Shown here in pieces: positions 8,606-33,814 of a stretch of 64,000 nt of DNA. The translations under genes were made by a program, and so were the position numbers. The notes under the pieces were generated by a model that had not been told where the DNA came from, made no database searches, and saw only the letters and a program-made list of their open reading frames with translations. This DNA is from an uncultured bacterium. GTDB lineage: Bacteria; JAUVQV01; CAWCAY01. Within the stretch, counting starts at the first letter, position 1; each line of letters starts with the position of its first letter. The DNA lies in NCBI GenBank assembly GCA_963793725.1, contig CAWCAY010000002.1, forward strand, positions 91,526 to 155,525. The letters run 5' to 3'.

Positions 8606-11048
8606 ATGGAACCGAACGCCGCGGCACCCGTCGAAACACCTTCCATCAGCGCCTACGGCCCGGCCCGGGCCACCGTTCCCGGGACCCCCCTCGACCCGGG
8701 CGAACTCCTCCTCATCGACGCCTGGTGGCGGGCAGCCAACTACCTGGCCGCGGGGATGATCTACCTCCACGACAACCCCCTGCTGCGCGAGCCGCTGCGC
8801 CCCGAGCAGATCAAGAACCGTCTCCTGGGGCACTGGGGCACGAGCCCGGGCCTTTCTTTCGTCTGGGCCCACCTGAACCGGGCCATCAAGCGCCACGACC
8901 TCGACATGATCTACATGGCCGGCCCGGGCCACGGGGCCCCGGGCGTCCTGGCGCCGATCTACCTCGAGGGGACCTATTCCGAGGTCTACCCCGACCAGAG
9001 CCGAGGACGAGGAGGGGCTGCTGCAGTTCTTCAGGCAGTTCTCCTTCCCCGGCGGGATCGGCAGCCACTGCACCCCCGAGACGCCGGGATCGATCCACGA
9101 GGGCGGGGAACTGGGCTACGTCCTGTCGCACGCCTGCGGCGCGGCCTTCGACAACCCCGACCTGATCGTCGCGGCGGTGGTTGGCGACGGCGAGGCGGAG
9201 ACCGGGCCGCTGGCCACCTCGCTGGCACATCAACAAGTTCCTCAACCCCGTCCGGGACGGCGCGGTCCTGCCGATCCTGCACCTGAACGGCTACAAGATC
9301 AACAATCCCACGCTGCTGGCCCGGATCAGTCACCGAGGAGTTGGACGACCTGATGCGCGGCTACGGCTGGACGCCCTACTTCGTCGAGGGCTCCGAGCCC
9401 GCGTCGATGCACCAGGCGATGGCCGCCACCATCGACAGCTGCGTCGCCGACATCGCCGACATCCAGAGGACGGCCCGCGACGGCGGGCCGGCCCGCGCCC
9501 GCGCTGGCCGATGATCGTCCTGCGCACCCCGAAGGGGTGGACCGCGCCCCGGGAGGTCGGCGGGCACACGCTCGAGGGCTTCTGGCGGGCGCACCAGGTG
9601 CCGATGGCCGGCGTGAAGAAGGACCCGGCGCAGCTGAAGCTGCTGGAGGACTGGCTGCGGAGCTACAGGCCGGAGGAACTGTTCGACGAGCAGGGAACCG
9701 TCCGGGCGGAGATCCGGGCGCTGGCCCCCGAGGGCAGGCTGCGCATGGGCGCCAACCCGCACGCCAACGGCGGGCTGCTGAAGAAGGCCCTGCGGATGCC
9801 CGACTTCCGCGACTTATGCCCTCCCCGTGGCCGAGCCGGGCAAGACCGAGGCCGAGAACACCAAGCCGCTGGGGATCTTCCTGCGCGACATCATGCGCGC
9901 CAACCCGTGCAACTTCCGGGTCTTCGGCCCGGACGAGACCACTTCCAACAAGCTCCACGCCGGTCTACGAGGCGAGCAAGAAGTTCTGGATCGCCGAGTA
10001 CCTGCCGGAGGACGCCGACGGCGGCGAACTGGCGCCCGACGGCCGGGTGATCGAGATGCTCAGCGAACACACCATGGAGGGGATGCTCGAGGGCTACCTG
10101 CTGACCGGCCGCCACGGCTTCTTCTCCACCTACGAAGCGTTCGCCCACGTCATCGACTCGATGTTCAACCAGCACGCCAAGTGGCTCGACGTCTGCAGCA
10201 ATCTCTCCTGGCGCGAGGAGGTCGCCTCGCTGAACCTGCTGATCACCTCGACCGTTTGGCGGCAGGACCACAACGGCTTCACCCACCAGGACCCGGGCTT
10301 CCTCGACGTGGTGGTCAACAAGAGCCCGCGGGTGACCCGCATCTACCTGCCGCCCGACGTCAACTGCCTGCTGTCGGTGGCCGACCACTGCCTGCGGAGC
10401 GAGAACTACATCAACGTCATCGTCTGCGACAAGCAGAACCACCTCCAGTACCTCGACATGGACGCGGCCATCAAGCACTGCACCAAGGGAATCGGCATCT
10501 GGGACTGGGCCATCGACCGACCGGGGCTCGGAGCCCGACGTGGTCATGGCCTACGGCCGGCGACATTCCCACCCAGGAGGCGCTGGCCGCCACGGTCTAC
10601 CTGCGGGAGGAGTTCCCCGACCTGAAGATCCGGTTCGTCAACGTGGTCGACCTGTTCAGGCTCCTGCCCGACTCGGAGCACCCCCACGGCCTTTCCGACC
10701 GGGACTTCGACAGCCTGTTCACCGTCGACAGCCCGGTCATCTTCAACTTCCACGGCTACCCCTGGCTGATCCACCGGCTGGCGTACCGCCGGACCAACCA
10801 CGCCAACCTGCACGTCCGCGGCTACAAGGAGAAGGGGAACATCAACACCCCGCTGGAGCTGGCCATCAACAACCAGATCGACCGCTTCATCGCTCGCCAT
10901 CGACGTGATCGACCGGGTGGCCAGGCTGCAGGTCGCCGGCGCCCACGCCAAGGAGCAGTTCAGGAACCTGCAGATCGAGTGCCGCAACTACGCCTACGAG
11001 TTCGGCATCGACAAGCCGGAGATCGGCCGCTTGGAAGTGGCCATACTG
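8606..11048 (+). pseudogene. xfp: Xylulose-5-phosphate/fructose-6-phosphate phosphoketolase, interrupted by at least 9 frameshifts
   Basis: Phosphoketolase sequence can be followed through track ORFs 8606, 9181, 9537, 9827, 10540 and 10905 with frame switches. The true C-terminus ...AAWKWPY* is in a different frame from ORF 10905. Examined indels look like single inserted C. Confidence 0.75.
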
Positions 11049-11203
11049 ATCCATCAGGCAGCGCGGGGTCCTGTCGACCGGCCACCTTCCCGCCGTGCTC
11101 CCGTGCGGTGCGCGCGGGGCAAATGGGACATCACTTCAGTGGTGTCCCGTCCTCCGTCCGGCGCCACCCCGCCCCGATCGACGGAATCAGAGAGGCCGGC
11201 GTA

Positions 11204-12433
11204 ATGAAGATACTGGTGCTCAATGCCGGCTCTGGCAGCCACAAGAGCTGCCTGTACGACCTGGGCGACCGCGCCGAGCCGCCCGACGCCCCCCCGCGAC
11301 CCGCCTGGCGGGCTCACATCGACTGGACGTCGGCCGAAGGGTCGGGGCGCCTCTCGGCCCGGGCGGGCGATGCCACGGTCGAGATCGCCCTGCCCACCGG
11401 CGACCGGCCGGCCGGCATGTCGGCCATGCTCGACACGCTCGTCTCCGGCCCGACCAGGGTGCTCGACCGGCTCGAGCTGATCAGGATCGTCGGCCACCGG
11501 GTGGTCCACGGCGGTGAGCACTTCACCGGCTCGGTCATGGTCACCCCCGAAGTCAAAGCGGCCATCGCCGAACTTATCCCCCTCGCCCCCGACCATAACG
11601 CCCACCAGCTCGACGGGATCGAGTCGATCGAGCGGGTCCTGGGCGCCGTCCCCCAGGCGGCCGTCTTCGACACCGCCTTCCACGCCACCCTTCCCCCGGC
11701 GGCCCGCGTCTACCCGATCCCGATCGAGTGGCGCGAGTGGGGAATCCGCCGATACGGCTTCCACGGCATCAGTCACCAGTACGTCTCGCGGCGGGCGGCG
11801 CTGCTCCTCGGCAAGCCGATCGGGAAATTGCGGATGGTCACCTGCCACCTGGGGAACGGTTGCTCGCTGGCGGCCGTCGACGGCGGGCGCAGCGTCGACA
11901 CGACCATGGGCTACACCCCGCTGGAGGGCTTGATGATGGGCGACCGCTCGGGTTCGATCGACCCGGGCATCGTCATCAACCTGATCCGGCGGCACGGCCT
12001 CTCGGCCGACCAAGTCGACTCGATGCTGAACGACTTCTCGGGGCTCAAGGGGGTCTCGGGGCTCTCCAGCGACATGCGCACCATCCTGGCGGCCCGCGCG
12101 GAAGGGAACGAGCGGGCCGGCCTCGCGCTGGACATCTTCGTCCACCGCCTCTGCTCGGGGATCGGCGCGATGGCCGCCTCCCTGGGCGGTCTCGATGCGC
12201 TGGTCTTCACCGCCGGCATCGGAGAGAACGCCCCGGTGGTGCGCGAGATGGCCTGCGCCCGCCTGGCCCACTTGGGGGTGGCCATCGACCGGGGCCGAAA
12301 CGCCGGTTGCCCGCCGGGGGCGGAGGTCGACGTGAGCGCGCCGGGGGCGGCCGCCAGGACGCTTGTCATCCCCACCGCCGAGGACTGGGCCATCGCCCGA
12401 AAGTGCTGGCGGCTCCTCCGCGAGCGAGCATGA
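11204..12433 (+). CDS. ackA: Acetate kinase
   Basis: [14 protein letters not shown]... and acetokinase signatures intact. RBS GAGAGG. The stop overlaps the next gene's ATG. Confidence 0.85.
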
Positions 12434-32106: not shown

Positions 32107-33024
32107 TCAGCCTTCCCGTTCCCGGGCCACGGCCGCCGGGCGCACGTGAATGAGCCAGACGCCGAGGAAGATCAGGATGCCGCCGATGGCCTGCATCTGC
32201 CCGAGCCGCTCGCCCAGCACCAGGCCGGAGAGGATGACCACCATCACCGGCTCGAGGTTCCCCACCGTCGAGGCCATCGTGGCCCCGACCAACTTCACCG
32301 CCGCGGCATAGGTGTAGATGGCCAGGAAGGTGCACACCAGGGCGATGATCGCCGGCGATCCAGATGACCGCCTCGTCGGCGCGCCGCCAGGCGCCCAGCG
32401 GCGACGAGACGGCCGACACCAGCACCAAGGTGGCCGTCACCGACCAGGTCGAGAAGGCCAGGGCGCCCGTTCCCGACGACCAGCCGCTGGCCGACCAGCG
32501 AATAGATCGCGTAGAGGACGCTCCCGGCCAGGGCCGCGGCCACGCCGTAGGGGTCGATGCCGCTGCCGGCGAAAGGCCCTTCGACCGCCAGGATCACCCC
32601 CAGGAAGGCCGAGCCCGAGCGCCAGCACGCCCACCGCCCCGAGCCACTCGCGGTGGAAGATGCGGTTCAGAAGGGCGATCAGGGGCGGGTGGGTGTAGAG
32701 GAGGATGACCGCCAGCGAGGCGTCGAGACGGCGGTAGGCGATGAACATGGCCATGGCCGCCAGGCCGAAGAGGATCCCGGCCACCCCGGAGAGAAAGGCA
32801 TTGTGGCGCCCGATGTCCATCGCCTGGCGGCGCAGTGACAGCGAAACGCTCCAGAAGATGACCGCGGCGAACAGGAAACGCAGCGCGAGGAGATCGAACG
32901 GCGACGTGCCGAGGCGGTAGGCGGCCTTGGCCAGCAGGGGCATGATGGCGTAGCAGACGGCCGACACGGCCGCCAGGATGATTCCCGTCGGACGCCGGAA
33001 CGGGGCGACTTTCTCCAAGGTCAC
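32107..33024 (-). CDS. EamA/DMT family transporter, 2 frameshifts
   Basis: N-terminal half is ORF 32437..33024, C-terminal half is ORF 32107..32337 (ILIFLGVWLIHVRP). Confidence 0.6.
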
Positions 33025-33027
33025 CGC

Positions 33028-33814
33028 CTAGATGCGCTCGACGAACCGGGGCGCGAGCGACCGGAAGACGGCCTCCCCGGCCACCGTGACCAGCGCGCCG
33101 AAGGCCAGCACCACCGCCAGGTCGGTCGGCCTCGGCCAGGCCGCCCCGTAGAGGATGTCGCGCCACACCCTGATCAGCGACGCGGCCGGGTTGAGCATGG
33201 CCAGGTCCCGGTAGCGCTCCGGGATCATCTCCTCGCTGTAGAGCACCGGGGTCAGGAAGAAGAGGAGCATGATCAGGTTGCCGATCAGGTGTTCGATGTC
33301 GCGGAAGAAGACCGTGGCCGCGGAGAGGAGGAGCGACAGGCCGTACAGCACCAGGAACTGGAGGATGGCCGCCACCGGGAGGAGGACCAGCGGCCAGCCG
33401 AACCGGACGCCGAACGCGGCGGCGAAGACGAAGTAGCAGCGGCAGCGACAGGGCGAAGTTCACCGTCGTGGCCGACAGGGTCACGAACGGCAGGATGACC
33501 GGCGGAAAGTTGACCTTCTTGAGCAGGTGGCCGTCGCGCAGCACCGCCGTGGTGGCCTGCGACAGGGATCCGGAGAGCCAGATCCAGGGGAGCAGGCCGG
33601 CGAAAACGAACATCGGGTAGCGGGGCACCTGGGCCCGCATGTAGACCGAGAAGACCAACGTGTAGACCAGCATCATCAGCAGCGGGTTGAGGAAGGTCCA
33701 CAGGAAGCCGATGACCGATCCGCGGTAGCGGACCTTCAGCTCCTTGGCGGTCAGTGTGGCCACCAGGACACGATGGCGGTGGATGTCGGCGAGGCTGCCC
33801 ATGGCGCCGCACAT
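33028..33814 (-). CDS. ABC-2 type transporter permease (KpsM/TagG-like), 1 frameshift near 33400
   Basis: ORFs 32594..33814 (N-terminal) and 33028..33375 (C-terminal) together make an ABC-2 permease. Confidence 0.6.

What the first reader, a model, noticed from the sequence alone, without database searches (positions are those of the whole stretch)
8606..33814. Two dense blocks of apparent frameshifts (8.6-11.0 kb and 25.4-33.8 kb) plus scattered single events; most look like single-base C/G insertions
Conserved proteins can be read only by switching frame. xfp needs at least 9 switches. The second pilB/gspE-like gene needs at least 7. The RR/PstS/HK/RR/TlpA block needs one to several each. 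EamA, the ABC-2 permease, trxB, rlmD (inside a C7 run), gspF, gspH (G-rich run), DUF362, eno and the M42 peptidase need one to three each. Where I could reconstruct the event (xfp 8990, RR 27453 and 27600, gspF 38945, DUF362 42818) it is an extra C next to GC. No premature stop codons from substitution were seen. This argues for systematic assembly or polishing error concentrated in low-coverage stretches rather than biological decay. The alternative is genuine pseudogenisation flanking the island, so gene-content conclusions for these blocks need care.
Basis: partly seen in the sequence, partly recalled or inferred. Interest (0 to 1): 0.55.

Follow-up and report, generated by a model that had tools for sequence, protein, structure and literature searches.

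The report
Frameshift blocks are assembly artefacts
The dozens of apparent frameshifts in these genes are almost certainly not real mutations: they look like a consensus-calling artefact made when DNA reads from two related strains were merged into one sequence, so the genes should be treated as intact.

Summary
The stretch 25.4-33.8 kb carries about 70 frameshifting insertions across nine genes. About 20 kb of flanking coding sequence has only about 6 such events. Five related public assemblies have every one of these genes intact.

It is not gene decay and not ordinary sequencing error. The extra bases avoid homopolymers: 10 of 70 equal a neighbouring base, against 46% by chance, and none lies in a run. 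They are not C/G-enriched (64% against 67% regional GC). At 25 of 40 testable sites the window holds both alleles of a SNP or MNP that separates two related lineages, side by side (null 10%, P about 3e-15). In 28-31 kb the window flips between the two lineages' alleles every few SNPs and has few private substitutions. Window-specific substitutions are not elevated, and their codon-position spectrum matches the clean flanks.

Best explanation: a long-read metagenome contig whose consensus was called on reads, or contigs, from two co-occurring diverged populations. An unrelated Flye-named ENA contig shows xfp broken the same +1-only way.

"Low coverage" and "C/G insertion" are not supported. Biological interest is low.

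The parts
8606..11049 (+). Block 1: xfp (phosphoketolase, ortholog 811 aa) broken by 10 one-base insertions (about 9003, 9222, 9335, 9484, 9816, 9958, 10512, 10552, 10889, 11024) and one 2-bp deletion (9496)
   Evidence: intact in L002-L005 and L011
25393..27257 (-). Block 2: PilB/GspE-like ATPase (ortholog 613 aa) with about 23 frameshifting insertions, the first at 25523
27387..27775 (+). Response regulator RR1 (128 aa) with 2 insertions (27452, 27600). It is 100% identical to L013's RR1 once they are removed. Both sites are tandem C/G alleles.
27780..28652 (+). PstS-like periplasmic binding protein (287 aa) with 9-10 insertions
28667..30812 (+). Histidine kinase (711 aa: HAMP, HisKA, HATPase_c) with 13 insertions and 6-8 one-base deletions. 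It has two in-frame TAG codons (29669, 30546) at codons that are MNPs between the lineages. The allele mosaic is strongest here.
30829..31204 (+). Response regulator RR2 (123-130 aa) with 5-9 insertions
31279..31867 (+). TlpA/AhpC-like thiol-disulfide oxidoreductase (190-197 aa) with 8 frameshifting insertions
31830..32095 (-). Small membrane ORF (83-86 aa in relatives) with one 2-bp insertion (31884) near its 3' end
32107..32976 (-). EamA transporter (288 aa) with 3 insertions (32355, 32478, 32616)
33028..33802 (-). ABC-2 permease (257 aa) with 1 insertion (33436; window GC where L013 has C and L011 has G)
16700..25400 (.). Lower-GC variable island between the blocks (1438-aa TPR ORF, small ORFs, Type IIG RM gene). 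It has no frameshifts, is absent from L011, and has different cargo in L002/L005.
36128..36128 (+). Scattered event with the same tandem-allele signature: L013 G, L011 C, window CG
38937..38937 (+). Scattered event in T2SSF (gspF): merged MNP, L013 GGG, L011 TCC, window GTCG
3030..3030 (+). Scattered event of the ordinary kind: one C missing from a C8 run in rlmD. Likewise 40400 (G-run) and 29242 (G-run at a C/G SNP).
1392..1392 (-). Scattered +1 (G) in the trxB-like gene
61853..62907 (-). M42 peptidase with 4 frame switches (about 61970, 62063, 62478, 62611). DUF362 (~42809) and enolase (~50478) have one switch each. All are located by the decoder and Pfam only.

Best explanation
The window comes from a long contig of a metagenome assembly, most likely a long-read assembly. 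In two stretches the consensus was computed from a mixture of two diverged populations: the contig's own strain and a co-occurring relative about 5-13% different. These stretches are the unusually conserved xfp gene and the PilB-to-ABC-2 gene cluster to the right of a strain-variable island. At sites where the two populations differ, the consensus step usually emitted one allele, which produces a fine-scale mosaic. At roughly one variant site in ten it emitted both alleles side by side, which reads as a +1 insertion. Occasionally it emitted neither, which reads as a -1 deletion. The result is about 80 frameshifts that exist only in this assembly, and the underlying genes are intact and functional in the organism. 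Shown here: the extra bases are private to the window, they sit on inter-lineage polymorphisms and carry both alleles, they avoid homopolymers, and substitutions are not elevated. Inferred: the sequencing platform, the polisher, and whether mixed reads or merged contigs were the input. A minority of the scattered single events (3030, 40400, and possibly 16836, which cannot be polarised) are ordinary homopolymer-length errors.
For: 1. Five independent related assemblies have all affected genes intact and syntenic: L002-L005 and L013 at ~93-94% DNA identity, and L011/L012 at ~87%.
2. Spectrum: 70 frameshifting insertions against a handful of real deletions in block 2, and 10 against 1 in xfp. 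There are no larger lesions.
3. Only 10 of 70 inserted bases equal a neighbour (46% expected), and none of the 70 lies in a run of 4 or more. Their G+C is 64% in a 67% region.
4. At 25 of 40 cleanly testable +1 sites, L013 and L011 each require a different window base to be deleted, meaning the window holds both alleles in tandem. Examples are 27110 C/G->GC, 27452, 27600, 28488, 28970, 29289, 29550 and 33436. Simulated random insertions give 10%, binomial P = 2.8e-15. Merged MNPs include AGC(Ser)/TCG(Ser) -> TCGC in the PilB-like gene. The rare deletions 29242 and 29660 also sit on L013/L011 polymorphisms.
5. In 28-31 kb the window shares alleles with L011 against L013 at 37-54% of informative sites, switching every few SNPs, compared with 13-20% in the flanks. 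Its private branch is short.
6. The window-specific substitution count is not raised (151 against 292 sister-specific in block 2; 98 against 147 in the flank). The codon-position spectrum is the same as in the flanks (52% against 53-58% third position).
7. After dropping the window-only bases, proteins are 82-100% identical to their orthologs.
8. The source contig is 272,616 bp, while a short-read Logan assembly of the same organism gives only 3.4 kb.
9. An unrelated ENA contig with Flye-style naming (contig_12011, 435 kb) has xfp split into at least 5 ORFs. All clearly resolved frame changes are +1 (one overlapping weak match in the middle is ambiguous), and its neighbours are intact. Many further xfp fragments lie on long ENA contigs.
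10. Flye-type assemblers are documented to collapse related strains into consensus contigs (PMC8302730).
Against: No reads and no same-strain assembly of the blocks could be obtained, so the two read populations are inferred and not observed. The only same-strain sequence (L001, window 14047-17511) lies outside the blocks, and one of its two indel differences (16410) is not a window error. The second haplotype is only approximated by L011 and L013. In 25.9-26.7 kb and 31-32 kb the partner allele is not seen in either relative, and 15 of 40 sites are uninformative. L013-L011 divergence is not clearly lower inside block 2 than in its right flank, so why the mixing stops at 33.8 kb is unexplained. 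Two in-frame TAG codons in HK would also fit real inactivation of that one gene. The allele mosaic alone could reflect natural recombination.
Confidence: 0.8

Rival explanations
1. Random residual sequencing error in low-coverage, poorly polished stretches of a long-read assembly. Raw-read indels survive because too few reads cover these regions.
For: The source is a long contig. Some scattered events are classic homopolymer-length errors: 3030 in a C-run, 40400 and 16836 in G-runs. The errors are clustered.
Against: The block insertions avoid homopolymers (0 of 70 in runs, 14% neighbour-identical against 46% expected). They coincide with inter-lineage polymorphisms six times more often than random insertions would. 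The insertion:deletion ratio is about 10:1. There is no accompanying rise in window-specific substitutions, which raw-read-quality sequence would show.
Confidence: 0.1
2. Genuine pseudogenisation: the genes flanking the mobile island are really decaying in this strain.
For: The blocks flank a strain-variable RM island. There are two in-frame TAG codons in HK. The reads could not be inspected.
Against: About 80 indels are accompanied by no excess substitutions and an unchanged codon-position spectrum. The spectrum is insertion-only, with no larger deletions or IS elements. Both alleles of known polymorphisms sit in tandem at the insertion sites, and no mutational process is known to do that. 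RR1 and ABC-2 are 100% and 98.8% identical to their orthologs after correction. Central-metabolism xfp is hit 11 times while the adjacent co-oriented ackA downstream is untouched. xfp on an unrelated contig shows the same +1-only pattern.
Confidence: 0.04
3. Post-assembly merging of two overlapping contigs from different strains (an overlap-consensus tool that keeps a base over a gap), rather than mixed reads during polishing.
For: A base-over-gap rule would give exactly an insertion-only, both-alleles-in-tandem consensus plus an allele mosaic. Short-read assemblies of the relatives break at window ~25985-26100, the left edge region of block 2.
Against: Block 1 is an internal 2.4-kb gene far from any obvious contig end. 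The same damage on a Flye-named contig suggests the assembler or polisher itself. Nothing here separates this variant from the main explanation, which it shares in essence.
Confidence: 0.05
4. Recoding: programmed ribosomal frameshifting or transcriptional slippage restores the proteins.
For: None beyond the fact that conserved proteins can be read by switching frame.
Against: There are up to 23 shifts per gene, at non-slippery and non-repetitive sites. None is conserved in any ortholog, all of which are in a single frame.
Confidence: 0.01

Closest known systems
Collapsed-strain (mixed-haplotype) consensus in long-read metagenome assemblies (metaFlye-type assembly plus polishing)
   Same: The window comes from a long contig from a complex community. 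Related populations are folded into one consensus. The consensus diverges from every individual strain. Indels break ORFs and marker genes (PMC8302730). Flye-style contig naming is seen in the parallel case L014.
   Different: The specific signature documented here was not found described in the papers I read, and the assembler and polisher of this window are not known. That signature is both alleles retained in tandem, giving +1-only, homopolymer-avoiding frameshifts confined to kilobase blocks.
Homopolymer-length indel errors of Nanopore/PacBio/454 consensus
   Same: Single-base frameshifts in otherwise conserved genes. A few scattered events here are of this kind (3030, 16836, 40400).
   Different: The block events avoid homopolymers, are almost all insertions, and sit on inter-strain polymorphisms.
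Clusters of genuine pseudogenes in decaying genomes (for example host-restricted bacteria)
   Same: Many neighbouring genes are unreadable without frame changes.
   Different: Real decay mixes deletions, insertions, nonsense mutations and larger lesions, and shows relaxed selection. None of that is seen here.
Programmed frameshifting (prfB +1, dnaX -1, IS3 transposases)
   Same: A protein is read across a frame change.
   Different: Programmed sites are single, conserved, and have slippery motifs. Here there are dozens per locus and none is conserved.

Membership tests
Mixed-haplotype consensus artefact | The extra or missing bases are private to this assembly and absent from related assemblies | tested here: met
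   L002-L005, L011, L012 and L013 all lack them and have intact genes
Mixed-haplotype consensus artefact | Indel sites coincide with polymorphisms between lineages and contain both alleles (or neither) | tested here: met
   25 of 40 sites against 10% in simulation, P = 2.8e-15. Deletions 29242 and 29660 and scattered events 36128 and 38937 are also on polymorphic sites.
Mixed-haplotype consensus artefact | The consensus is a fine-scale mosaic of two haplotypes with few private alleles | tested here: met
   37-54% L011-type alleles alternating every few SNPs in 28-31 kb, against 13-20% in the flanks. The window-specific branch is short. Natural recombination is not excluded for the mosaic alone.
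Mixed-haplotype consensus artefact | Two read populations (and normal or raised depth) across the blocks | not testable with these tools
   No read data. Same-strain Logan contigs for the blocks were not retrievable. The JGI scans were empty.
Mixed-haplotype consensus artefact | Recurs in other assemblies of the same kind at conserved genes | tested here: met
   ENA ERZ25039464 contig_12011 has xfp in at least 5 ORFs with +1 shifts and intact neighbours. Many xfp fragments lie on long ENA contigs. Only one case was examined.
Homopolymer-length sequencing error | Indels lie in homopolymer runs and change the run length | tested here: not met
   In the blocks, 0 of 70 are in runs of 4 or more and 10 of 70 equal a neighbour. 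The feature is met only for scattered 3030, 16836, 40400 and 29242.
Genuine pseudogenes | Relaxed selection: excess lineage-specific substitutions and a flattened codon-position spectrum | tested here: not met
   151 window-specific against 292 sister-specific substitutions. Third-position share is 52% against 53-58% in the flanks.
Genuine pseudogenes | Mixed lesion spectrum (deletions at least as common as insertions, nonsense codons, larger deletions, IS insertions) | tested here: not met
   About 80 small insertions, a few 1-nt deletions, two TAG codons, and no large lesions
Genuine pseudogenes | Lesions supported by high-quality reads of a single strain | not testable with these tools
   No reads available
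Programmed frameshifting | A single conserved shift site with a slippery motif, shared by orthologs | tested here: not met
   Orthologs are single-frame. There are up to 23 shifts per gene at unrelated sequences.

The most novel reading that the evidence does not exclude
The extra bases are real and mark a biological process. For example, recombination between two diverged co-resident strains at the borders of a defence island could have left unrepaired heteroduplex tracts that were resolved by retaining both alleles. That would inactivate xfp and a nine-gene signalling, secretion and transport cluster in a very recent event, before substitutions could accumulate.
Probability: 0.02. Interest if true: 0.8.

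Novelty: not a real feature. Interest (0 to 1): 0.1.

Why it matters
The biological value is low. The practical value is that xfp, the PilB-like ATPase, the RR/PstS/HK/RR/TlpA cluster, EamA and the ABC-2 permease should be scored as present and intact in this organism. Any pseudogene count, completeness estimate or metabolic reconstruction from this contig would otherwise be wrong. The tandem-allele signature consists of +1 insertions that avoid homopolymers and sit on inter-strain SNPs inside kilobase blocks. It is a simple reference-based diagnostic that separates strain-collapse artefacts from homopolymer error and from true decay. The parallel damage to xfp on another long ENA contig suggests that highly conserved genes in long-read MAG catalogues may be affected systematically.

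Tried and rejected
1. Same-strain comparison. Exact-protein look-ups for iPGM, the RM gene, HD-GYP (two start codons), ackA and PMT_2/TPR found nothing. Only L001 (Logan ERR10755943, window 14047-17511, 99.9% identical) was obtained, and it lies outside the blocks.

2. A retraction. I first read both L001 indel differences as window errors and withdrew that. At 16410 the relatives agree with the window, and 16836 cannot be polarised.

4. Two JGI metagenome scans, with patterns spanning sites 29550 and 27600 and the suspect base optional, found nothing. The pattern does match L011-L013 locally, so that collection simply lacks these samples.

5. The first homolog search, with a 187-aa fragment, returned only fragments because hits seem capped near 1.75x the query length. 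Stitched queries solved this.

6. Linking ERR10755943 to a project failed: a literature search found only JGI 3300044712, a rice-root plaque study, and no supplements were held.

7. I tested whether the blocks coincide with lower divergence between lineages, which would give a cross-mapping threshold. This holds for the xfp tail (9.6%) but not clearly for block 2 against its right flank (13.3% against 13.8%), so I did not adopt it as the explanation of the block boundaries.

8. Programmed frameshifting and methylation-related basecalling error were considered and rejected. Neither gives insertion-only events at non-motif sites confined to blocks.

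
Full report
**Setting.** The window is 66-73% G+C, with a lower-GC stretch at about 16.7-23 kb. Pfam scans and synteny with related contigs give this gene order:
- trxB-like, an Asn-synthase-like gene, rlmD and an M23 peptidase.
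- HD-GYP/PAS/GAF (6276-8480), xfp (8606-11049), ackA (11204-12433), PMT_2/TPR (12430-14250), PBP-OmpA (14293-15660) and DUF6448.
- A variable island: a 1438-aa TPR ORF, small ORFs, and a Type IIG restriction-modification (RM) gene at 22200-25358 on the minus strand.
- A PilB/GspE-like ATPase (minus strand), response regulator RR1, a PstS-like binding protein, a histidine kinase (HK), response regulator RR2, TlpA, a small ORF, EamA and an ABC-2 permease (the last three on the minus strand).
- iPGM (33920-35128), followed by a T2SS-like cluster, a radical-SAM gene, DUF362, enolase and an M42 peptidase.

- A GC3 frame plot shows clean single-frame runs of 1-3 kb outside the blocks. Inside 8.6-11.0 kb and 25.4-33.8 kb the frame changes every 100-400 nt.
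- A Viterbi decoder, with codon usage trained on intact genes of this window, finds 9 switches in xfp and more than 60 in block 2. Nearly all go f->f+1, which means one extra base.
- Stitching the segments gives near full-length proteins. These retrieve intact orthologs: xfp P0121 (811 aa, 92% identical to the crude stitch) and HK P0242/P0243 (711 aa, 87-88%).

**Relatives.** Exact-protein look-ups of those orthologs gave syntenic contigs from other metagenome assemblies:
- L002-L005 and L013 come from NCBI metagenome assemblies and are about 93-94% identical to the window in DNA.
- L011 is a 102-kb contig from JGI 3300044712, a rice-root iron-plaque study. It is about 82-90% identical to the window.
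- L012 is a Logan contig of the same lineage as L011.
- All genes are intact in all of these contigs, and L011 lacks the island.

**Catalogue of events.**
- Against L002/L005, xfp has ten +1 insertions and one 2-bp deletion.
- Against L011 (25.3-26.0 kb) and L013 (26.0-33.8 kb), block 2 has 70 frameshifting insertion events between 25523 and 33436. The mean spacing is 115 nt and the spacing CV is 1.12. There are also 14 short deletions, several of which are compensating pairs in divergent stretches.
- Per-gene counts are listed under the observation check.
- About 20 kb of aligned flanking coding sequence has only about six frameshifting events.
trxB 1392, rlmD 3030, 36128, gspF 38937 and 40400 are confirmed by alignment. 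DUF362, enolase and the M42 peptidase regain full-length Pfam matches only after stitching.

**Not gene decay.** With L011 as outgroup, window-specific substitutions in block 2 number 151 against 292 on the L013 branch. In the clean right flank the figures are 98 against 147, and in 11.2-16.5 kb they are 98 against 99. The window-specific substitutions fall 52% on third codon positions in the blocks, against 53-58% in the flanks. After dropping the window-only bases, the proteins are 82-100% identical to their orthologs: RR1 100%, ABC-2 98.8%, EamA 95.5%, xfp 92%. Eighty neutral indels with no accompanying neutral substitutions, no larger lesions and almost no deletions is not a plausible mutational history.

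One caveat remains. The corrected HK has two in-frame TAG codons (29669, 30546). Both sit at codons where L013 and L011 differ at two or three adjacent positions. I interpret them as mis-consensus at MNP sites, but they would also fit real inactivation of HK alone.

**Not ordinary sequencing error.** The 70 one-base insertions are G26/C19/A17/T8, which is 64% G+C in a 67% G+C region. Only 10 of the 70 equal a neighbouring base, against 46% expected, and none lies in a run of four or more. Ordinary long-read error does the opposite.

**The signature.** At most sites L013 and L011 place their alignment gaps one or a few bases apart. Read directly, the window holds both alleles:

| Site | L013 | L011 | Window |
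|---|---|---|---|
| 27110 | TT-C-AGC | TT-G-AGC | TT-GC-AGC |
| 27452 | G | C | CG |
| 28488 | G | A | AG |
| 29550 | A | C | CA |
| 33436 | C | G | GC |
| 10552 (xfp; L005 in place of L013) | A | T | TA |

- Multi-nucleotide polymorphisms are merged in the same way. In the PilB-like gene, AGC (Ser) and TCG (Ser) become TCGC at three sites (26069, 26461 and 26746). In gspF, GGG and TCC become GTCG at 38937.
- As a formal test, I asked which window base must be deleted to best match each relative. At 25 of 40 cleanly testable sites the two relatives require different bases. Simulated random insertions in the same sequence give that outcome 10% of the time, so the binomial P is 2.8e-15.
- The 15 uninformative sites cluster at 26.07-26.62 kb, where L013 and L011 are nearly identical to each other and the window has many private alleles.
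- The rare deletions (29242, 29660) also sit on L013/L011 polymorphisms, with neither allele kept.
- In 28-31 kb the window shares the L011 allele at 37-54% of informative sites and switches every few SNPs. In the flanks this share is 13-20%.

**Mechanism.** Together these results indicate a consensus computed over two diverged haplotypes. It emits one allele (mosaic), both alleles (+1), or rarely neither (-1). Several observations fit this:
- The source contig is long. The window's PBP-OmpA protein is held by NCBI, ENA and Logan, with a longest contig of 272,616 bp. The short-read Logan assembly of the same organism reaches only 3.4 kb here.
- The relatives' short-read contigs break at window ~25985-26100, which marks a strain-variable junction.
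- xfp is unusually conserved across taxa, with 78-81% amino-acid identity to Methylococcaceae, Bryobacteraceae and Singulisphaera. That would make it a magnet for cross-mapping reads.
- An unrelated 435-kb ENA contig with Flye-style naming (ERZ25039464 contig_12011) has xfp split into at least 5 ORFs. The clearly resolved frame changes are +1 shifts (one overlapping weak match in the middle is ambiguous), and the adjacent transketolase is intact. Many other xfp fragments lie on long ENA contigs.
- Strain collapse into consensus contigs by Flye-type assemblers is documented (PMC8302730).
- The platform, the polisher, and whether mixed reads or merged contigs were the input are all inferred.

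**What remains open.**
- No reads and no same-strain assembly of the blocks were available.
- L001 (99.9% identical) lies outside the blocks. One of its two indel differences (16410) is not a window error, because the relatives agree with the window. I therefore withdrew my early reading.
- Why the mixing ends at 11.05 and 33.8 kb is not explained. Inter-lineage divergence is not clearly lower inside block 2 than beside it.

**Verdict.**
- "C/G insertions" and "low coverage" are not supported. The evidence points to strain-collapse consensus instead.
- The genes should be treated as intact.
- Biological interest is low. The diagnostic signature has some practical use for quality control of MAGs.

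Noticed in passing
window 16700-25400; L002 17700-22436; L005 17900-22436; L011 6018-6764: The lower-GC island between DUF6448/DUF4149 and the PilB-like gene is strain-variable. The window has a 1438-aa ORF (only a weak TPR hit, no PADLOC hit) plus a Type IIG RM enzyme. L002 and L005 keep the RM gene but carry different cargo (BrnT toxin, DUF3800, DUF2283, small ORFs). L011 has no island at all.
   Followed up: partly
window 15695-15779, 23201-23286 (reverse complement), 35182-35233; L002 21528-21565: An ~85-nt REP/MITE-like element lies in the PBP-OmpA/DUF6448 spacer. It recurs at 92% identity in inverted orientation inside the open reading frame of the Type IIG RM gene, where it is translated in frame as a Pro/Gly/Ser-rich linker. 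A partial copy lies downstream of iPGM, and L002 has a partial match at the same place in its RM gene.
   Followed up: partly
window 22210-22437; L002 18354-18550, 19343-19450, 20490-20712; L005 19724-19919, 20712-20939: The last ~200 nt of the RM gene occur two or three times in the relatives' islands, at ~88-90% identity and overlapping ~60-aa ORFs. It looks as if successive cassette insertions each left a copy of the RM 3' end.
   Followed up: no
window ~25985-26100 (L002, L005 and L013 contig ends): Two independent short-read metagenome contigs end ~0.7 kb past the RM gene, and the next contig (L013) starts at window 25985. This recurrent assembly break inside the PilB-like gene suggests graph branching from strain variation at the island border.
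   Followed up: partly
L011 13148-14050: A 300-aa Cofac_haem_bdg gene lies between TlpA and the small ORF in L011. It is absent from the window and from L013.
   Followed up: no
window 61853-62907: The M42 peptidase at the right end of the window needs four frame switches within 1 kb, so it may be a third small block. No close relative was available to test for the tandem-allele signature.
   Followed up: partly
one search hit list; L014 4652-7226: Dozens of 190-330-aa xfp fragments lie on ENA contigs of 30 kb to 1.2 Mb. The one examined (ERZ25039464 contig_12011) has xfp in at least 5 ORFs with +1 shifts. This suggests systematic breakage of this conserved gene in long-read metagenome assemblies.
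   Followed up: partly
window 16410 and 16836; L001 2364 and 2789: The same-strain Logan contig differs from the window by two 1-nt indels. At 16410 the relatives agree with the window, so the Logan contig or strain is the odd one out. 16836 (G4 against G5) is in the island and cannot be polarised.
   Followed up: yes
window 30552-30812: The histidine kinase has a C-terminal Cys-rich extension after the HATPase domain (C..C...CxxC-like spacing). It is conserved in the 711-aa orthologs and has no Pfam assignment.
   Followed up: no
window 1-64000: There are no tRNA or tmRNA genes anywhere in the 64 kb, so the island is not tRNA-associated.
   Followed up: yes
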